Translations under genes and position numbers: made by a program | IMG/VR virus record: IMGVR_UViG_3300050821_002136 | Coordinates: 1 to 64,000 of that record | Direction: 5' to 3' (one strand) | Length of the DNA stretch: 64,000 nucleotides | DNA from: a virus | Notes under the pieces: generated by a model | The model's database searches: none | The model's input: only the letters and a program-made list of their open reading frames with translations | Told to the model about the DNA's origin: nothing | Part shown: in pieces, positions 5,089 to 62,149 of the stretch | How positions within the stretch are numbered: position 1 is the first letter of the stretch | Layout: each line of letters begins with the position of its first letter

Positions 5089-7746
5089 TTAACGTCTCAA
5101 CTGTCTGGGTTGACCCTGGGGTTGCCCGGGAGGTGCCTGGGATTGCGGTTTCTCCCCCTTCAATGCCTCAGGGATTGCTTTTTTCTGAACGGCCTGCTGT
5201 AGTTGTTCCTGATTATGCTGAGCAAAATCTGCAGGCGTTGCATTGATGCTCATTTTAGCAAGAGCCTGAACCGCTACTGCGGCTGGCATCTTAGAAACAT
5301 CAACGCTTATGCTCTCGGAAGGTGGTTTATCCGGTGGTGCATTAGCTGCGGCAATTTTCTTAGCCATAGCTACATGCTCTGTCCAATGCAAATGTACGTT
5401 GGCGAACGCTGCACGCTGTTGAGGAGTACCCCATTTGAATTTCTGGCCCTCTGAGCTGTTCATCCAGCTTAAACATGCCGAAGCTTCTAATGTATGCAGT
5501 TCACTTTCGTCCTGTGCGACCGGGACAGTGCTGACCATTGGGGGAAGCGTGGTCTGTTGCTGTTGTAACTGCTGAACCATGGCTATTTCTTTGGGATCAG
5601 CAGGTATTCCTTGAGCAACCTTGGGTCCCATTTCATCAGCGGCTTGTGCAAGTGTCTGCTGTATTTTAAGGAGCTGAGGATTCGGCATAGGGCCGGATCT
5701 CAAGAGCAACTCAAACTCCGACTTCTGTTTCGTAATAGAAGTTGCGCCAGTGACTTTGAAACCTTTCAAACGCAAACCGTCTTGCAACACAGGAAGATTC
5801 TCGGGAGAGAATATCCACGCTGCTAATGATGGATTAGCATTGCTTGTGTCTACTAAGCCTGTAAGCTTGGCTTCCCTTTGAGCAGAACTCTCGGGGAATG
5901 ACGGATCACTTTCTGGGTAGCAAAGAACATTGCCTGACAAATTGCTCGTGTTTACCGAAATACGTCCAATACCTTTGAACGTTTGTGAAATCTGTTTGCC
6001 TTCTCGGCAATCTGCCGCGCAACCAACTGCTTGTCTTGCGCACTCTGCAAAGAGTGCCTGGATATTGTTCCAAGGACACCCTATACGCTGCAGTGCTTGG
6101 TCCCTCTGTATCTGTGCATTACCTACTGTATTCTCACCAGTCGCCGCGCCAAACAATGATGGCAGTGCGCCACTAATCTCTTCTGAAAGATTAGTAATGA
6201 ACCATTTGATAAAATCAGCTAGAGACGCTTGCGGCTGAGGAGTAGGCTCGACCATGATGTACTGATCCATGGTTGTAAGCCCAGGTTGAGGTAGAAATGA
6301 TCCAGTGCTACCAGGGACATTGTTCTCGCTCTTAAGAACTTGTAGATCAAACGCGTCAGCATTCATCCACTTCTTAGGAACGGTACGTTTGAAGAAGTCA
6401 TCCTGCAGATCCACCCAGTCATTAATTCTTTTCTGAATAGAAATTAAGGAACTACCTAATGCTCTGCGATTTTGTCCTTTGCCTGTGAACGGATGGGCTA
6501 TTGCTAGATGGGCATCCATGCTCTCGTTTCTAGAGAATGCATAGTTAGCTCCGGCCTTTACTAACAAAGCTCCATTAGGAAACTTTTCAAGGAGTTCTGC
6601 GCGGACTGCGTCGTTTACTTTTTCGTCCATGAACATTGAAGGACGAAACCACGTATACTTTACAACCGTATGACGTTGTAGGGAATCTCCAGTTACGTAC
6701 GCTCCAAGCACAGCTTGCCTAGTGTTCTCTCGGGCAATCCTGTCCAATTCAACTTCTGTGTTTCCGTCTGAGCCAGTCCTAATTTTATCGGCAATCCACG
6801 GGAACTTAGCTTTTACAATGGCAACGTCTAGGTCCTCATAGAGCTGCACGAATTGCATGTCTTTGATGTTGTCTACTGCGATGGGTACCTTGTGATCCAA
6901 CTTTCCATGCAAGGTAGTGACTTCTCTTCCTCTGGGTTTCTTAGCAGGCTCAGGGGCTTCTGTGGTTTCTTCTTGCTCCTCGTCCTCTTCAGTCTCCGTG
7001 GGAGATTCTGTCTGTTCTAAGAAGGAGTCTAGGCCTTCTTGGCCTGTGGGTGCATCTTCTGGAGGATTGAGAATATCTTCGGCAGTGACTGGTGCAGTGT
7101 CTCCGTCGTCTCCATCAAACCCGTACAACTGGCCATTAAGCTCATAGCGCGTCCACGCTAACACTCGGTCTTCATTCCAGAAGATACGAGCGCAGTCGGT
7201 CAACAATGCATGTAAATTATTGTTACGCGACCAAATCTCTTTGAACTTGTCTGCTTCTTCTGCCGCAACTATGTCCGGCCCGTACTCTGGGTTGGCGGGA
7301 AAGAACTCTACCTTGGGGACTTCACGAGCAAGTGCGGATACAATGATGTCTCCTTTTGATCCGTACACATTCGTGTCATAGATGGTGTTGTTGTTCTTTT
7401 GAGAATTGGGTCCAAACCCTGAAGCCTGTCCAGGAAGAATCCATCCACCCTGCTTTCCTCTCAGTAGATGCTGATAACCTCTATCAAAGTGCAAAGCTTC
7501 CCAAGTTTGTTCGACTTCGAACCTACGCGCTGCAACGTCTGTCTTTGTGGCGATGATGTCCAGCTGCATAAGTACGCCCTGAGCATCTTCTGTTAAGTCT
7601 GCGAAAGGCTCGGAAGAATGAGGAAACGGGGCATAGACACCTAATGGGCTATCATTAGGAGACTCAGGTTTTACGTATGGCATGGGCATTGACGGAGCAT
7701 TGGTAGTCATGGTGTTTACGTCCTGCCCGGGTCCTTGGTCTGCCAT
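5089..7746 (-). CDS. Portal protein
   Basis: 885 aa downstream of TerL; SLISIQKRIN, LSEEISG..LFG, Q/P-rich C-terminus typical of P22/podovirus-like portals. Confidence 0.8.
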   Translation of the reverse strand: MADQGPGQDVNTMTTNAPSMPMPYVKPESPNDSPLGVYAPFPHSSEPFADLTEDAQGVLMQLDIIATKTDVAARRFEVEQTWEALHFDRGYQHLLRGKQGGWILPGQASGFGPNSQKNNNTIYDTNVYGSKGDIIVSALAREVPKVEFFPANPEYGPDIVAAEEADKFKEIWSRNNNLHALLTDCARIFWNEDRVLAWTRYELNGQLYGFDGDDGDTAPVTAEDILNPPEDAPTGQEGLDSFLEQTESPTETEEDEEQEETTEAPEPAKKPRGREVTTLHGKLDHKVPIAVDNIKDMQFVQLYEDLDVAIVKAKFPWIADKIRTGSDGNTEVELDRIARENTRQAVLGAYVTGDSLQRHTVVKYTWFRPSMFMDEKVNDAVRAELLEKFPNGALLVKAGANYAFSRNESMDAHLAIAHPFTGKGQNRRALGSSLISIQKRINDWVDLQDDFFKRTVPKKWMNADAFDLQVLKSENNVPGSTGSFLPQPGLTTMDQYIMVEPTPQPQASLADFIKWFITNLSEEISGALPSLFGAATGENTVGNAQIQRDQALQRIGCPWNNIQALFAECARQAVGCAADCREGKQISQTFKGIGRISVNTSNLSGNVLCYPESDPSFPESSAQREAKLTGLVDTSNANPSLAAWIFSPENLPVLQDGLRLKGFKVTGATSITKQKSEFELLLRSGPMPNPQLLKIQQTLAQAADEMGPKVAQGIPADPKEIAMVQQLQQQQTTLPPMVSTVPVAQDESELHTLEASACLSWMNSSEGQKFKWGTPQQRAAFANVHLHWTEHVAMAKKIAAANAPPDKPPSESISVDVSKMPAAVAVQALAKMSINATPADFAQHNQEQLQQAVQKKAIPEALKGEKPQSQAPPGQPQGQPRQLRR

Positions 7747-13410: not shown

Positions 13411-13486
<76 letters not shown>

Positions 13487-13491
13487 AAAAT

Positions 13492-13565
13492 TGGTGGACC
13501 GTGAGAGAGTTGAACTCTCGTTTGAAGCTTGCAAAGCTACTGTCCTCCCACTAGACGAACAGCCC
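13492..13565 (-). tRNA. tRNA-Ala (UGC)
   Basis: GGGCTGT/ACGGTCC with G3.U70, loop TTTGCAA, A73, CCA. Confidence 0.88.
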
Positions 13566-13784
13566 ACATAAACTTGGATATTTCATTTCTTCGAAGAGGG
13601 AATGAAAATGCCTAAAGACCCTATTGTCGCCACATTCAGCTCTACGTATGGAGCAGGCACGCGACCGGCCTTTAGACGGCGTCGAATTCCGTAGCCTCAC
13701 CATCACCTCGGACGAGGGGTGAGTCTTTACTCGGCACGGGCTTATCAAGCCCTCACGGTCGCGTAGCGCCCATGGCCGAATCTT

Positions 13785-13860
13785 TGGAGCCCCTGGATGG
13801 GATTTAACCACCGGCCTCAACCGTACAAAGGGTGCGCTCTGTCTACTGAGCTACAAGGGC
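13785..13860 (-). tRNA. tRNA-Thr (UGU)
   Basis: GCCCTTG/CAGGGGC, loop TTTGTAC, CCA; T-loop TTAAATC and one anticodon-stem mismatch. Confidence 0.8.
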
Positions 13861-23437: not shown

Positions 23438-23512
23438 TGGTGGGCAATGCAGGACTCGAACCTGCGACATCCTGCGTGTAAGGCAGGCGCTCTGCCGCTG
23501 AGCTAATTGCCC
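23438..23512 (-). tRNA. tRNA-Val (UAC)
   Basis: Canonical cloverleaf, loop CTTACAC, TTCGAGT, CCA. Confidence 0.95.
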
Positions 23513-23868
23513 GTTATACTTCTCGCTTGTTTTGGACTAAGAGCAACAAGCTCCCATGCGCCGTCAAGAAACATCATTACCTTTGCTGGAGATTCGCTGA
23601 TGTCAATTACCTGTCCATCCTCGATCCATCCGTGAAAGCATGGGTATTGAATTGACGGAGAGACTGTAAGTTCATCAACAAATTTTCCCTCACGTTTCCA
23701 TAGAGGTTTTTGCCAAGGAGCGGGATTGTACCCATCCAGAGGGTTTTCAAAGTATACACACAGCCGATGGTTTGGTCCACACTTTGGACAGTCTAAGGTC
23801 ATTCCTTCTCCACTGTCGGGACGAAGTAGTCCACAAAATTTAGGATTTAAATTAATCAATGGAAGCAT
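23503..23868 (-). CDS. DUF6527-like protein
   Basis: CPKC..H, TVSPSI..CFHGWI.DG; stop overlaps the tRNA-Val 5' end. Confidence 0.6.
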   Translation of the reverse strand: MLPLINLNPKFCGLLRPDSGEGMTLDCPKCGPNHRLCVYFENPLDGYNPAPWQKPLWKREGKFVDELTVSPSIQYPCFHGWIEDGQVIDISESPAKVMMFLDGAWELVALSPKQARSITGN

Positions 23869-23887
23869 TGCTCTCTCCTTTGAAATT

Positions 23888-23963
23888 TGGTTGGCGCGGC
23901 AGGCTTCGAACCTGCGACCTCTCGGTTATCATCCGAGGGCTCTACCAATTGAGCTACGCGCCA
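23888..23963 (-). tRNA. tRNA-Ile (GAU)
   Basis: Cloverleaf, loop ATGATAA (A32), TTCGAAG, CCA. Confidence 0.9.
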
Positions 23964-42685: not shown

Positions 42686-43633
42686 ATGAGCGATGCACTG
42701 GTAGTACTGAACAACAACACAGCTATAATGTCTGGGGGCGTAGGTCTCGGCTCCTCGATTTTCAAAGCACGCCCTAGCTTTCTGGAACTGGTCCATAAGA
42801 GCAGCCGTCAAGAGAATGTGGTGCCCGGGGAATTCCGAGTGTTGTCAACGAATGAGCACCTGGGCAAGACCATTCGCGCAGTGCTCTTGGCCGTACCTCA
42901 GCCACGTCGTGAGTGGTACCGTGATCCCACCGTGTTCTCTAAGGACAACAAGGCATGCTTCTCGCTGGACGGCATTCGTCCACATGACCGTGCAGCTGAC
43001 CCTCAGGCCATGTACTGCGCAAAGTGCCCCAAGGGAGACATCAACTGGAACACATGGCGCAAGACGAAGGACCCCAAGGATCTCCCTCCGTGCGGTGCGT
43101 ATTGGCACTTGTTACTCGCTGATCGTGCAACACAGACGCCTTACTACCTCGACATCAAGGGCACAAGCGCTTCGCCCTTCAAGCAAGCCATGGAAACTCA
43201 GATGTCCGGCCTGCTTGCGAAGTTGATGGCCAATGTACGTGCTGAGAATAAGCAGCGCGGATATTCGCTAGTGACTCTGCAAAATCAGGAAACCGGAGAG
43301 CAGTTCCAAGAGTTCCGTACGACGCCTGGGTTTACTGTGCCAGAAACTGGGCAGCTCCCAATCTTGCCGATGCCGAACATCTTTGACATCAGCTTCGATA
43401 TCTACGCTGCAAGCAAAGATGGTGGACCGTACGTCATGGGCTTCAAGAACTTTGCTCTAATGAAGCCTGAGGACAAAGCTGAGTTTGGTCAGTTGTACCT
43501 CGACCTGATGCAGCAACGCGCAGAAGCACAGCAAGTGCAGCAGAACGACGAAGCCGAGGTAGATGCGGCAGTGGCCGAAGCCCCTGCTCAGCAAGCCAAG
43601 GGTGGTGAAGTTCTGCCGCCAATCACAATCTAA
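42686..43633 (+). CDS. Putative ssDNA-binding/annealing protein
   Basis: CFSLDG..P..CAKCP..PPC motif and acidic tail; adjacent to the exonuclease. Confidence 0.6.
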   Translation: MSDALVVLNNNTAIMSGGVGLGSSIFKARPSFLELVHKSSRQENVVPGEFRVLSTNEHLGKTIRAVLLAVPQPRREWYRDPTVFSKDNKACFSLDGIRPHDRAADPQAMYCAKCPKGDINWNTWRKTKDPKDLPPCGAYWHLLLADRATQTPYYLDIKGTSASPFKQAMETQMSGLLAKLMANVRAENKQRGYSLVTLQNQETGEQFQEFRTTPGFTVPETGQLPILPMPNIFDISFDIYAASKDGGPYVMGFKNFALMKPEDKAEFGQLYLDLMQQRAEAQQVQQNDEAEVDAAVAEAPAQQAKGGEVLPPITI

Positions 43634-43646
43634 AAAGGAGAAAATA

Positions 43647-43868
43647 ATGTTGAAAATAGAACTCAACGGGGAAAGGAACTATGAGCTTGCTAAGTTGTCA
43701 GCCAAGCTTATCGACGGAGACTTAGTGATCACTGACGAAACCGCTGGTTGGTCTCTGGTTGCTTTGCGTATCGTGGACAATAAGATCAACCTTGTGCGCT
43801 ACAACAGCATCGCTGATAAGAATTACAACACAGACAAACAGGGCAGGCTTGTAGAAGTGCCCGAGTAG
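43647..43868 (+). CDS. Hypothetical protein
   Basis: AAAGGAG RBS, start MLKIEL. Confidence 0.65.
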   Translation: MLKIELNGERNYELAKLSAKLIDGDLVITDETAGWSLVALRIVDNKINLVRYNSIADKNYNTDKQGRLVEVPE

Positions 43869-43899
43869 GTCGTCGCGGCGACGTTAAGCCGATGGTGGA

Positions 43900-44014
43900 G
43901 GCGTGCGGTTCTACAGGGGGAGGGCTTAGCGGCCCTGGTGGAAATCTGAGCACTAAGGTGAGGCAAAGATGAAATCTCAGATATGAACTCCCTTCCCCTG
44001 TAGGGCCGTACGCC
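43900..44014 (+). ncRNA. Long hairpin RNA upstream of tmRNA
   Basis: 25-bp stem 43900-43924/43990-44014; its 4 non-Watson-Crick pairs are all G.U on the plus strand. Confidence 0.6.
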
Positions 44015-44019
44015 CCGTA

Positions 44020-44294
44020 AGTTATGGATGTATGAAGCTGAGGTACGAGTTGCAAGACCCGGTTTCGATACCGGCAGGTCCACCACAACGCTTCAGGTAT
44101 AACGGCATTACCGGCGTACACCCGGAGAGCGGGTCTCGCTGAAGCGTTTTGATGGGCCTGAAAGGTTTCGATTGCGACTACGAGACAGCAGTGGACATCC
44201 CGAGATGACGTGGCCCTCGTTAAAAGGACACGTAACAACCAACCGCGACTGAAAAGCCGATGGTTATGGCAGCTGCCGCAGGGCGCTAGCCATA
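44020..44294 (+). ncRNA. ssrA: Circularly permuted (two-piece) tmRNA
   Basis: Acceptor piece ending CAGGTCC-A-CCA (44075-44085) precedes 5' GGGCCTG (44154); G3.U70; helix 2, pk1 and tag ORF 44245-44289. Confidence 0.9.
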
Positions 44295-44295
44295 G

Positions 44296-44328
44296 GGTGG
44301 GCAGGGTCAAACCTGCCCTACCGATTTT
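44296..44328 (+). terminator. Terminator after tmRNA coding piece
   Basis: GGGCAGG-GTCAAA-CCTGCCC then TACCGATTTT. Confidence 0.6.
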
Positions 44329-44368
44329 AGATTCAGATGTACAAACCCAAACAGGAGAAACAACATCA

Positions 44369-44899
44369 ATGAAGTACCTTAGCTCCATCTTAGCAATTCT
44401 CGTTCTTTCCATTGCGGCCTTTTCTCAGGATTACCCAGTAGGCCCGAACGTAGGCAAGGCAACCACGCCGTACGCAACCACCAACTTCTCGGCCACATTC
44501 GACGGCCCAGTGACTGCAATGTTGCCAACGAGGAATGGCGAGAACACCAGCACCGATTACAAGTACGTTTCTCAGAACGGCAAAGTTGCAGAAGCAGTCA
44601 CGGTTCGCTTTATTGACCATGACATTGCTGTGGACTATACGTCCTCCGACTTCTACGCCAACGACGACCGCACGGGCGGCACGGTAGACACGGCTAACAC
44701 CAGTCATGATTCGTGGAATGGTGCGCCGTTCACTTATACGTACCGTACCTTTACGCTCGATGGTGTGATACTGACCAAGCGTACTCGTTACATCATCGTG
44801 AATGCTCGTGAGGCCATCTTCATTCAGCAAATCACGGCTGTTGGATATGAAGATCGGCCGGAATGGCTGGACTTCGAGTACTCGTTACGCATCAAGTGA
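44369..44899 (+). CDS. Secreted/periplasmic protein
   Basis: CAGGAG RBS; signal peptide MKYLSSILAILVLSIAAFSQ. Confidence 0.8.
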   Translation: MKYLSSILAILVLSIAAFSQDYPVGPNVGKATTPYATTNFSATFDGPVTAMLPTRNGENTSTDYKYVSQNGKVAEAVTVRFIDHDIAVDYTSSDFYANDDRTGGTVDTANTSHDSWNGAPFTYTYRTFTLDGVILTKRTRYIIVNAREAIFIQQITAVGYEDRPEWLDFEYSLRIK

Positions 44900-61126: not shown

Positions 61127-62149
61127 ATGAGCACAGCTGGAACGCAGCGCAAACTCGACATCACGCAGAGCAGCAAGCTTTATGCACAACTAGCCAAGGA
61201 CTTCTCAGCTAAGATCGTAGGCCAAGAGGAAGCTACTCAGGCCCTTCTGAATATTGTTGAGTCCCACCAAGCAGGCTTCTCGGATGCCAGCCACCCCGCT
61301 GGCGTAGCTCTGTTCCTCGGTCCAACAGGCACTGGCAAGACGCTAGTGGCTGAGACCCTGGCCGCATCCTTACTTGGTAGCAAGCTCGCCTGCCTGCGTA
61401 TTGACTGCGCTGAGTACCAGCACGGACATGAGATCGCCAAATTAGTGGGATCTCCCCCGGGATACTTGGGCCATCGTGAGACGCACCCGCTGCTGACACA
61501 GGAAGCACTTAACCAGTGGCACACGGACAAGATGAAGCTTTCCATTCTTCTCTTCGACGAGATCGAGAAGGCCAGTGATACGCTCTGGGCTTTGCTACTA
61601 GGCATCCTCGATAATGCTACGGTGACCTTAGGAGACAACCGCAAGGTTAACTTTAGCAATGTGATCATTGTCATGACAAGCAACCTCGGCGCACGTAAGA
61701 TGTCTAGTCGTGACATAGGATTCATGGACCCATCCGAAGAGACTGACAACGCTCGCATGGAGACGCAGGCCAGGAGCGCAGCAAAGAGCAAGTTCTCACC
61801 TGAGTTCATGAATCGTTTGCAGTCCATAGTGGTCTTCAAGACTTTGTCCGAGGAGCAAATTGAGAACATCCTTGAACTTGAATTGAAGGCGCTAGAGTAT
61901 CGCTTGTTCATGGTCAGCAAACCGTTCTTCACCATAGCCGTATCACCTAAAGCCAAACGTACGTTGCTGGCTGAGGGCTACGACAAGGCCTACGGTGCGC
62001 GGTATCTCAAACGCACTATCGAGAGACGCATACAGCAGCCGCTGGCAAGACTAGCAGCCAGTGGGCAAGTAGCAGAGCACGACAAAATCATCATTGATGA
62101 CCTCGGAGACAAGAGCTTCGAGTTCTACGTACAGGGGAGAAACTTATGA
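61127..62149 (+). CDS. Stand-alone ClpA/B/C D2-type AAA+ ATPase
   Basis: IVGQEEA, GPTGTGKT, GSPPGYLG, LFDEIEKA, MTSN, IGF, FSPEFMNR, YGARYLKR; no N-domain or D1. Confidence 0.92.
   Translation: MSTAGTQRKLDITQSSKLYAQLAKDFSAKIVGQEEATQALLNIVESHQAGFSDASHPAGVALFLGPTGTGKTLVAETLAASLLGSKLACLRIDCAEYQHGHEIAKLVGSPPGYLGHRETHPLLTQEALNQWHTDKMKLSILLFDEIEKASDTLWALLLGILDNATVTLGDNRKVNFSNVIIVMTSNLGARKMSSRDIGFMDPSEETDNARMETQARSAAKSKFSPEFMNRLQSIVVFKTLSEEQIENILELELKALEYRLFMVSKPFFTIAVSPKAKRTLLAEGYDKAYGARYLKRTIERRIQQPLARLAASGQVAEHDKIIIDDLGDKSFEFYVQGRNL

What the first reader, a model, noticed from the sequence alone, without database searches (positions are those of the whole stretch)
44020..44294. Phage-encoded circularly permuted (two-piece) tmRNA
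Seen: the tRNA-Ala-like 3' end (GAC-CCGGT-TTCGAT-ACCGG-CAGGTCC-A-CCA, 44056-44085) lies UPSTREAM of the 5' end GGGCCTGAAAGGTTTCGA (from 44154). GGGCCTG/CAGGTCC forms a 7-bp acceptor stem with G3.U70 and A73, the AlaRS identity elements. The 68-nt spacer folds back (AACGCTTCAG/CTGAAGCGTT), bringing the ends together. Helix 2 forms across the pieces: TTGCGACT/AGTTGCAA, CAGC/GCTG, ACATCC/GGATGT. Pseudoknot 1 is CGAG/CTCG plus ACGTG/CACGT, followed by a resume codon and tag. Known: permuted ssrA genes occur in a few bacterial lineages (Alphaproteobacteria, some cyanobacteria and betaproteobacteria); the phage tmRNAs I know of are one-piece. Inference: a minimal two-piece tmRNA (no pk2-4 evident) in a phage, perhaps from an independent permutation, relying on host SmpB since none is in the window.
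Basis: partly seen in the sequence, partly recalled or inferred. Interest (0 to 1): 0.92.

Follow-up and report, generated by a model that had tools for sequence, protein, structure and literature searches.

The report
Two-piece tmRNA gene in soil phage
A ~108 kb soil phage carries a genuine, conserved 'two-piece' (circularly permuted) tmRNA gene for rescuing stalled ribosomes; such genes are already known in phages, but this one has a shortened T-loop, an unusual tag ending in Gly-Arg, and probably works in a host phylum whose own tmRNA is one-piece.

Summary
Nine distinct homologues occur in related ~90-110 kb phages, including the cultured Acidobacteriota phages Tunturi_3 and Tunturi_4, where the gene is unannotated. 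Across 10 sequences and 20 anchored pairs, 93.5% of cells pair and 15 pairs show compensatory changes (0 of 500 shuffles reach this); G3·U70 and A73 are invariant.

Two-piece tmRNAs in phages are already published (53 unique forms; Buchholz 2022). An independent permutation is not supported: two relatives pass the alpha_tmRNA threshold, and several keep the alpha-type 3'-tail motif.

Three features are unusual:
- The T-loop is 6 nt. The family ranges from 5 to 8 nt, and ARAGORN misses every copy that is not 7 nt.
- The tag ends ...AAAGR. This end is conserved in three phages by synonymous changes, instead of the canonical ...AA degron.
- The likely host phylum uses one-piece tmRNA.

The phage encodes no SmpB. 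Verdict: a new member of a known kind, of moderate interest. This scan also noted the tag end separately (e1-5993140).

The parts
43897..44016 (+). Long, nearly perfect hairpin (~27 bp outer stem) in the 5' leader, between the upstream ORF's stop (43868) and the tmRNA. Possibly a processing site (RNase III-type substrate; inferred).
   Evidence: strand folding gives MFE -73.8 kcal/mol, z -4.78, 0 of 200 shuffles as stable. Single copy in the genome. The outer stem and flanks (TGGTGGAGGCG ... CGCCCCGTAAGTTA) recur upstream of the G004 tmRNA and at the end of contig L039. Absent in G001, G010 and G015.
44026..44085 (+). Acceptor piece: helix-2 3'-side strands (GGATGT, GCTG, AGTTGCAA), GAC, T-arm (CCGGT/TTCGAT/ACCGG), acceptor 3' strand CAGGTCC, discriminator A, encoded CCA.
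   Evidence: Rfam RF04321 alignment; script dissection; covariation across 10 homologues.
44086..44153 (+). Intervening spacer removed during maturation. A 10-bp end-to-end stem plus two inner hairpins, with a 5-nt single-stranded tail before G1.
   Evidence: RNAfold gives -28.5 kcal/mol. Nine of ten homologues have a 9-14-bp end-to-end stem built from unrelated sequence, followed by a 4-5-nt tail.
44154..44200 (+). 5' part of the coding piece: acceptor 5' strand GGGCCTG (G3 pairs with U70), D-loop analogue AAAGGTTTCGA, and helix-2 5'-side strands (TTGCGACT, CAGC, ACATCC).
44201..44233 (+). Pseudoknot PK1: S1 CGAG/CTCG and S2 ACGTG/CACGT, with loops of 3, 3 and 9 nt, ending 11 nt before the resume codon.
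   Evidence: It is the best H-type pseudoknot in the region, matched by 1 of 200 shuffles. G016 has the same layout from different sequence (AACGG/CCGUU and GUAUGU/ACAUAU, loops 2, 1, 8, ending 12 nt before the resume codon). The other homologues are ambiguous.
44245..44289 (+). Tag reading frame GCG...TAG encoding ATEKPMVMAAAAGR.
   Evidence: Frame analysis. Homologous tags: G011 ...KAMGAAAGR, G015 ...KAMGAAAGR, G010 ...KAMGAAAGV. ARAGORN independently reads the G015 and G010 tags. G011 and G015 differ at 5 synonymous and 0 non-synonymous codons in the last 9.
44296..44322 (+). 3'-terminal hairpin of the coding piece (GGTGGGCAGG ... CCTGCCCTACC), followed by GATTTTAG. Probable 3' end or weak terminator.
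   Evidence: RNAfold gives -20 kcal/mol. G001, G012 and G004 have the same GGRURGG-stem-loop-CCYUWCCGA form with co-varying inner stems. The simple terminator scan does not call it because the tail has only 4 T.

Best explanation
It is a functional, phage-encoded, circularly permuted ssrA gene that descends from the alphaproteobacterial two-piece tmRNA lineage. Inferred mechanism: it is transcribed with the + strand replication/early genes, since no sigma-70-like promoter lies in front of it. Host tRNA-processing enzymes cut the precursor, RNase P 5' of G44154 and 3' trimming to the encoded CCA at 44085, and the 68-nt spacer is discarded. The ~60-nt acceptor piece and the ~170-nt coding piece stay together through the 7-bp acceptor stem and helix 2. 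Host AlaRS charges it (G3.U70, A73). Host SmpB and EF-Tu deliver it to stalled ribosomes, where translation resumes on GCG 44245 and adds ATEKPMVMAAAAGR. The benefit to the phage is extra ribosome-rescue capacity during infection. The Gly-Arg terminus probably means that rescued products do not carry the classical ...AA-COOH ClpXP degron. Shown here: gene identity, architecture, conservation, covariation, selection on the tag peptide, and absence of a phage SmpB. Inferred: processing sites, charging, tagging, and the fate of tagged proteins.
For: RF04321 scores 66.6 bits against a gathering score of 47. Nine further distinct homologues in related phages score 52-103 bits; every near-complete relative has one, mostly 6-10 kb upstream of the primase/helicase. 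Over 10 sequences and 20 pairs, 93.5% of cells pair and 15 pairs show two-sided changes; slid registers give 37-50%, and 0 of 500 partner shuffles reach the observed value. G1-C72, G2-C71 and G3.U70 are invariant. All eight co-folded homologues give the same two-piece architecture. Spacer stems are conserved in structure but not in sequence. The tag peptide is conserved by synonymous change. ARAGORN calls a permuted tmRNA with the same tags in 5 relatives. There is no SmpB in the phage. Phage two-piece tmRNAs are an established class (PMC9004378).
Against: The T-loop is 6 nt rather than 7, and ARAGORN misses the gene. The lineage-specific models score low on the window's own copy (beta 35 bits against 84). 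PK1 is convincingly matched only in G016. The tag lacks the canonical terminal Ala-Ala. The host is inferred only from cultured relatives at 30-64% protein identity.
Confidence: 0.8

Rival explanations
1. It rescues ribosomes without marking proteins for destruction, or acts as a competitor. The RNA is charged and enters stalled ribosomes, but its real role is to out-compete host tmRNA, so that rescued (including phage) proteins get a non-degradable ...AAAGR end instead of the host degron. This is a functional sub-variant of the main explanation.
For: The Gly-Arg or Gly-Val terminus is conserved in four phages, by synonymous changes. More distant relatives keep ...LAA...VAA or ...AAA, so the change is derived. 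From established knowledge, ClpX reads the free C-terminal Ala-Ala. A CDS-less phage tmRNA (DS6A) is reported to inhibit host tmRNA (as cited in PMC11915505).
Against: There is no direct evidence on the stability of AGR-tagged proteins. Other proteases (Lon, FtsH, Tsp) may read other parts of the tag. The degradation rules of Acidobacteriota are unknown.
Confidence: 0.3
2. It is a decaying or non-functional relic of a captured ssrA gene.
For: Non-canonical T-loop, ARAGORN negative, atypical tag end, and low lineage-model scores.
Against: All helices are kept by compensatory changes across phages whose proteins are only 30-80% identical. The 6-nt T-loop recurs in G011 with a compensated closing pair (U:A against C:G). 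The tag is kept by synonymous substitutions. G3.U70, A73 and CCA are intact.
Confidence: 0.06
3. It is a fragment of host ssrA picked up at an integration site (an attP/attB remnant), not a working gene.
For: tmRNA genes are common integration sites, and fragments occur in prophages (PMC9004378). Tunturi_3 has an integrase.
Against: Both halves, PK1, the tag and the 3' hairpin are complete. The likely host phylum has one-piece tmRNA (1,589 standard and 0 alpha-permuted in 2,144 genomes), so it cannot be a copy of the host gene. No bacterial match was found to the PK1/resume motif.
Confidence: 0.02

Closest known systems
Alphaproteobacterial two-piece tmRNA (Rfam RF01849 alpha_tmRNA; Caulobacter type, Keiler, Shapiro and Williams 2000, as cited in PMC9004378)
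   Same: The same permuted gene order, with the acceptor/T-arm half first, then a spacer, then the 5' half with PK1 and the tag. G3.U70, A73 and encoded CCA. Reduced pseudoknot content. Relatives G012 and G016 pass the alpha threshold. ANDN tag starts and the ACC..CAACAGAA 3'-tail motif occur in several relatives.
   Different: The window's own copy is below threshold for the alpha, beta and cyano models (best is beta at 35 bits). It lacks the alpha 3'-tail motif, has a 6-nt T-loop, has a tag that ends AAAAGR, and lies in a phage.
Two-piece tmRNAs of marine phages (OM43 phage Melnitz, pelagimyophages, cyanophages; Buchholz et al. 2022, PMC9004378)
   Same: A phage-encoded permuted ssrA without a phage SmpB, located in the early/replication region. 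In Melnitz the tmRNA type also does not match the host lineage.
   Different: Those were found by ARAGORN, and 50 of the 53 came from marine or aquatic samples. This clade is from soil and is probably Acidobacteriota-infecting. Half of its members are invisible to ARAGORN. No riboswitch is attached.
One-piece tmRNAs of mycobacteriophages, and the CDS-less DS6A form (PMC11915505, PMC1475703)
   Same: A phage-borne tmRNA that relies on host SmpB and AlaRS.
   Different: Those have standard, unpermuted gene order, and DS6A lacks a tag frame. Here the gene is permuted and the tag frame is under purifying selection.
Tunturiibacter phages Tunturi_3 and Tunturi_4 (PP885686, PP885687; Demina et al. 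2025, PMC11924767)
   Same: The same phage lineage, with at least 12 shared replication genes at 30-64% identity. Both carry homologous permuted tmRNAs (63.3 and 79.2 bits).
   Different: Their tmRNAs are not annotated or discussed. They have 7-nt T-loops and canonical tag ends...MLAA and ...AVAA. Tunturi_4 pairs the tmRNA with an ArfB-like gene, which the window's phage lacks.

Membership tests
Permuted (two-piece) tmRNA, Rfam RF04321 | Score at or above the curated gathering threshold of the covariance model | tested here: met
   66.6 bits against 47, E 1.2e-10 over the window.
Permuted (two-piece) tmRNA, Rfam RF04321 | Circularly permuted gene order: T-arm, acceptor 3' strand and CCA lie upstream of the acceptor 5' strand, separated by a spacer | tested here: met
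   CCA ends at 44085 and G1 is at 44154, with a 68-nt spacer. All nine homologues have the same order.
Permuted (two-piece) tmRNA, Rfam RF04321 | 7-bp acceptor stem with G3.U70 and discriminator A73 (AlaRS identity) | tested here: met
   GGGCCUG/CAGGUCC followed by A and CCA. Six compensated stem versions occur in 10 sequences, and G3.U70 is invariant.
Permuted (two-piece) tmRNA, Rfam RF04321 | T-arm: 5-bp stem with a 7-nt T-loop | tested here: inconclusive
   A 5-bp stem is present and co-varies, but the loop is 6 nt (UUCGAU). The U54..A58 core can still form. G011 has the same 6-nt loop with a compensated closing pair. The family spans 5-8 nt.
Permuted (two-piece) tmRNA, Rfam RF04321 | Helix 2 formed between the two pieces | tested here: met
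   Co-fold gives z -3.5, and all eight co-folded homologues give the same architecture. Helix 2a pairs co-vary, including the core pair CGAY/RGAC (C:G to U:A).
Permuted (two-piece) tmRNA, Rfam RF04321 | PK1 pseudoknot shortly upstream of the resume codon | tested here: met
   An H-type pseudoknot ends 11 nt before GCG and is matched by 1 of 200 shuffles. G016 has the equivalent architecture from different sequence. The other homologues are ambiguous.
Permuted (two-piece) tmRNA, Rfam RF04321 | Short tag reading frame starting at an Ala codon and closed by a stop codon | tested here: met
   GCG 44245 to TAG 44287, 14 codons. The peptide is conserved with mainly synonymous differences among relatives.
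Permuted (two-piece) tmRNA, Rfam RF04321 | Tag ends in the hydrophobic ...(L/V/A)AA degron (typical of the family, not strictly defining) | tested here: not met
   The tag ends ...AAAAGR. G011 and G015 end ...AAAGR and G010 ends ...AAAGV. More distant relatives end ...VAA...LAA or ...AAA.
Permuted (two-piece) tmRNA, Rfam RF04321 | Processed into two RNAs, alanylated, bound by SmpB, and active in trans-translation | not testable with these tools
   No phage SmpB.
alpha_tmRNA (RF01849) | Score at or above the gathering threshold (50 bits), and the alpha-type 3' tail | tested here: not met
   For the window, the best clan model is beta at 35 bits, and alpha scores lower. Relatives G012 (60) and G016 (59.9) do pass. 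The 3'-tail motif is seen in G016 and Tunturi_3 but not in the window. This indicates descent from the family, not a typical member.
beta_tmRNA (RF01850) | Score at or above the gathering threshold (84 bits) | tested here: not met
   35 bits for the window, and 25-55 bits for G010, G011, G015 and Tunturi_3.

The most novel reading that the evidence does not exclude
The sub-clade of these phages that contains the window has re-engineered trans-translation. Its two-piece tmRNA adds a phage-private tag ending in Gly-Arg or Gly-Val that host ClpXP cannot read. Either rescued proteins are spared, or they are routed to the phage's own single-ring ClpA/C-type unfoldase (window 61127-62149, a D2-only protein with an IGF ClpP-docking loop). 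All of this happens in a host phylum (Acidobacteriota) whose own tmRNA is one-piece.
Probability: 0.12. Interest if true: 0.75.

Novelty: new member of a known kind. Interest (0 to 1): 0.45.

Why it matters
The finding extends phage-borne two-piece tmRNAs from marine phages to a soil phage lineage. That lineage has cultured, tractable members (Tunturi_3 and Tunturi_4 on Tunturiibacter), and the gene has gone unannotated in them.

It shows that ARAGORN-based surveys undercount such genes. Half of this family escapes ARAGORN, and most of the missed copies have T-loops of 5, 6 or 8 nt.

It gives a natural series of tag termini within one gene family: ...LAA/...VAA, then ...AAA/...AHA, then ...AAAGR/...AAAGV. 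It also gives a likely mismatch between phage tmRNA form (two-piece) and host form (one-piece). Both make the long-open question 'what is a phage tmRNA for?' testable in a cultured system.

Tried and rejected
- ARAGORN on the window found no tmRNA. Adding one U to the T-loop as a diagnostic did not rescue detection, so the miss has more than one cause.
- DNA search of the cultured-phage collection with 3 kb around the locus: no match.
- Exact 25-mer of the T-arm and acceptor in IMG/VR: no match.
- The exonuclease as a query for related loci: nothing.
- PK1/resume motif scan of 185,579 bacterial genomes: one hit, inside an ORF of an alphaproteobacterial MAG with no tmRNA signal, so a chance match and no host lead.
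- Metagenome scan with the upstream gene: three loci. The closest (72%) ends just as the tmRNA leader starts, so it adds nothing for the tmRNA.
- MAFFT alignment for the count of structure pairs: it mis-registered the acceptor 5' strand by one column in several rows, so pairs were counted on structure-anchored positions by script instead.
- Obligatory coupling of the Clp-type ATPase to the tmRNA: rejected. The complete phage G017 has the ATPase but no tmRNA of either form, and G016 has the ATPase with a canonical ...AAA tag.
- An ArfB-like gene in the window's phage: none.
- Supplement search of the tmRNA-database paper for AAAGR or AAAGV tags: no occurrence, but only 13.7 kb of supplementary text is held.
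- PK1 in G010, G011, G015, G004, G001 and G012: no single consistent pseudoknot could be assigned.

Full report
WHAT IS THERE. The window belongs to an IMG/VR virus record of 108,277 bp that CheckV rates 98% complete. The genes around the locus are phage replication genes: DNA polymerase, two helicases, primase/helicase, exonuclease and a ParB-like protein. Rfam 15 places its permuted-tmRNA model RF04321 on 44026-44283 (+) at 66.6 bits, against a gathering score of 47, with E 1.2e-10 for the whole window.

The elements, in gene order:
- The acceptor piece ends ...GAC-CCGGU-UUCGAU-ACCGG-CAGGUCC-A-CCA at 44085.
- A 68-nt spacer follows, whose ends form a 10-bp stem.
- The coding piece starts with GGGCCUG at 44154, completing a 7-bp acceptor stem with G3.U70 and A73.
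- Three helix-2 segments join the two pieces.
- PK1 is an H-type pseudoknot (CGAG/CUCG plus ACGUG/CACGU) that ends 11 nt before a GCG codon.
- A 14-codon frame (44245-44289) encodes ATEKPMVMAAAAGR.
- A conserved hairpin lies at 44296-44322.

The two predicted mature pieces co-fold with z = -3.5, and none of 200 dinucleotide shuffles is as stable. A pseudoknot as good as PK1 arises in 1 of 200 shuffles. No SmpB (PF01668) and no ArfB-like RF-1 domain is encoded anywhere in the phage.

HOMOLOGUES AND COVARIATION. Searching with neighbouring proteins brought in related ~90-110 kb IMG/VR phages. Every near-complete one has an RF04321 hit of 52-103 bits, in most cases 6-10 kb upstream of the primase/helicase as in the window. 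The nearest cultured phages are Tunturiibacter phages Tunturi_3 and Tunturi_4, whose primase/helicase is 51% and 44% identical to the window's. They share at least 12 replication genes with the window at 30-64% identity. Both also carry the gene, at 63.3 and 79.2 bits.

This gives ten distinct sequences. I counted pairs on structure-anchored positions: 7 acceptor pairs, 5 T-stem pairs, and 8 helix-2a pairs counted outward from the CGAY/RGAC core. The result:
- 93.5% of the 200 cells are standard pairs.
- 15 of the 20 pairs show changes on both sides.
- Sliding the 3' partner by 1-3 nt gives 37-50% paired.
- Dealing partners among sequences gives 66.8 +/- 2.5%, and none of 500 shuffles reaches the observed value.
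- G1-C72, G2-C71, G3.U70 and G7-C66 never vary.

The spacers share no sequence. Even so, 9 of 10 form an end-to-end stem of 9-14 pairs that begins right after CCA and stops 4-5 nt before G1. This is what one expects if the precursor presents a tRNA-like extended stem to RNase P and the 3' processing enzymes. For PK1 the support is thinner. G016 has the same layout built from different sequence, but I could not assign one consistent pseudoknot to the remaining homologues.

WHAT KIND OF tmRNA, AND IS IT NEW? Phage-encoded two-piece tmRNAs are already in the literature. Buchholz et al. 2022 found 53 unique two-piece forms among 18,146 phage genomes, 50 of them from marine or aquatic samples, and studied the one in OM43 phage Melnitz (PMC9004378). 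The tmRNA database lists 79 phage sequences, and its authors built RF04321 by merging the alpha, beta and cyano models (PMC11915505).

The suggestion of an independent permutation is not supported either:
- G012 and G016 pass the alpha_tmRNA gathering score, at 60 and 59.9 bits against 50.
- The alpha model's 3'-tail motif (ACCuGGCAACAGAAacCucC) is recognisable in G016 and Tunturi_3, and in degraded form in G010, G011 and G015.
- Several tags begin ANDN.

The window's own copy is a divergent member. Its best lineage-specific score is beta_tmRNA at 35 bits against 84, and it lacks the alpha tail. It has instead the GGRURGG-hairpin-CCYUWCCGA end that it shares with G001, G012 and G004.

WHAT IS UNUSUAL.

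(1) T-loop. The window and G011 have a 6-nt loop, UUCGAU, closed by U:A and C:G respectively, which is a compensatory change. G004 has 5 nt, G016 has 8 nt, and the rest have 7 nt. The U...A positions that form the T-loop's reverse-Hoogsteen pair are retained, and only the 3' bulged nucleotides are lost (interpretation from established tRNA structure). ARAGORN calls a permuted tmRNA in G001, G012, G010, G015 and Tunturi_4. It misses all four copies with non-7-nt loops, and also Tunturi_3. ARAGORN-based censuses must therefore undercount this family.

(2) Tag end. The tags are homologous (...P-K-A-M-(G)-A-A-A...), but four phages extend them past the Ala run: the window with AAAAGR, G011 and G015 with AAAGR, and G010 with AAAGV. 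ARAGORN reads the same tags for G015 and G010. In the last nine codons G011 and G015 differ at five codons, all synonymous. The Gly-Arg end is therefore selected and is not an assembly error. More distant relatives end ...MLAA...AVAA...SVAA...EAAA and ...AAHA, so the extension is derived. ClpX recognises the free C-terminal Ala-Ala (established knowledge), so these tags probably do not act as the classical degron. That step is inferred, not tested.

(3) Host. Tunturiibacter belongs to the Acidobacteriota, class Terriglobia. The tmRNA database counts 1,589 standard, 0 alpha-permuted and 5 'beta'-permuted tmRNAs in 2,144 Acidobacteriota genomes. If the window's phage infects that phylum, it brings a two-piece tmRNA into cells that use a one-piece one. 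The host assignment is an inference from relatives at moderate identity.

(4) Annotation. The GenBank records of Tunturi_3 and Tunturi_4 carry no feature at the tmRNA positions. The paper describing them does not mention tmRNA.

CONTEXT. Between the upstream ORF's stop (43868) and the tmRNA lies a 120-nt, nearly perfect hairpin at 43897-44016, with z -4.8, single copy in the genome. Its outer stem and flanks recur upstream of the G004 tmRNA and at the end of metagenome contig L039. Other relatives lack it; in them the upstream ORF stops about 7-20 nt before the tmRNA. No sigma-70-like promoter or canonical terminator is called in 43400-44500. The tmRNA is therefore probably cut out of a longer transcript, and the long duplex would suit RNase III (inference). 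A gene for a secreted or lipoprotein-like protein follows (44369-44899), as it does in G001 and Tunturi_3, where it is gp133, 'lipoprotein'.

THE Clp LEAD. I confirmed the family assignment. It matches Pfam AAA_2 plus ClpB_D2-small, and its best solved relatives are the D2 modules of ClpB and ClpC, at E about 1e-59. It has an extra loop...SSRDIGF..., at the place where ClpB has none; ClpA and ClpC carry their ClpP-docking loop there (established knowledge). Its distribution is suggestive but not conclusive:
- It is present in all four phages with AGR or AGV tags, and in G016.
- It is absent from the complete genomes of G001, Tunturi_3 and Tunturi_4, which have canonical tags.
- The complete phage G017 has the ATPase and no tmRNA of either form.

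The sample is small and confounded by phylogeny. I keep the link only as the low-probability novel case.

VERDICT. The core interpretation, a phage-encoded two-piece tmRNA that depends on host SmpB, is well supported by model score, synteny, covariation and selection on the tag. The novelty claim and the independent-permutation idea are not supported. It is a new, divergent member of a known kind. Its secondary features are interesting: variation in T-loop length, a selected Gly-Arg tag end, a probable mismatch with the host's tmRNA form, and cultured relatives in which the gene is unannotated.

Noticed in passing
window 43897-44016 (+): A 120-nt, nearly perfect hairpin (z -4.8), single copy in the genome, immediately upstream of the tmRNA. 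Its outer stem and flanks are shared with G004 and L039 but absent in other relatives. Possibly a processing (RNase III-type) site or an inserted element.
   Followed up: partly
window 43893-43903 (+); also L024 just upstream of the tmRNA (which starts at 1501); L039 1274-1284: The motif TGGTGGAGGCG at the start of the leader hairpin is the exact reverse complement of a canonical tmRNA 3' end (CGCCTCCACCA). It is conserved in three divergent loci. It could pair with the 3' strand of an acceptor stem, either the phage's own or the host's. Its meaning is unknown.
   Followed up: no
window 61127-62149 (+): A stand-alone D2-type Clp/Hsp100 AAA+ module (AAA_2 plus ClpB_D2-small) with an inserted ...SSRDIGF... 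loop at the ClpP-docking position. Present in G010, G011, G015, G016 and G017; absent from G001, Tunturi_3 and Tunturi_4.
   Followed up: partly
PP885686.1 88172-88396 (-) = L036; PP885687.1 43532-43941 (-) = L037: The cultured Acidobacteriota phages Tunturi_3 and Tunturi_4 carry permuted tmRNA genes (63.3 and 79.2 bits). These are not annotated in GenBank and not mentioned in the describing paper.
   Followed up: yes
L035 6024-6371 (Tunturi_4 gp53) followed by the tmRNA at about 6376-6785: An 'RF-1 domain peptide chain release factor' gene (ArfB-like ribosome-rescue factor) ends about 5 nt before the tmRNA gene, forming an apparent ribosome-rescue cassette in a phage. The window's phage has no such gene.
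   Followed up: partly
L022 1893-2058 (G011): An Rfam tRNA hit (45.9 bits) covers the full 71-position model but spans 166 nt, about 125 nt downstream of the tmRNA. It is probably an intron-containing or otherwise interrupted tRNA gene.
   Followed up: no
L039 811-1268: In the closest metagenome relative, an HNH-endonuclease-like ORF (…CCVCCH…LDHV…N…C…) sits between the homologue of window gene 42686-43633 and the tmRNA leader. The window instead has a 101-aa ORF there.
   Followed up: no
window 44369-44899 (+): A gene for a small protein with an N-terminal signal-like segment (MKYLSSILAILVLSIAAFSQ...) directly follows the tmRNA. The same arrangement is seen in G001, G004 and Tunturi_3 (gp133, 'lipoprotein'). 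It has no Pfam or PHROG match.
   Followed up: partly
window 13411-13860 and 23438-23963 (-): Five tRNA genes (Asn, Ala, Thr, Val, Ile) lie on the minus strand, so the phage carries further translation-related RNAs.
   Followed up: no
PMC11915505 Supplementary Table S2: The tmRNA database lists 5 'permuted (beta)' tmRNAs in Acidobacteriota genomes, against 1,589 standard ones. The window's sub-clade of this phage family scores best with the beta model, so those five may be phage contigs binned into MAGs.
   Followed up: no
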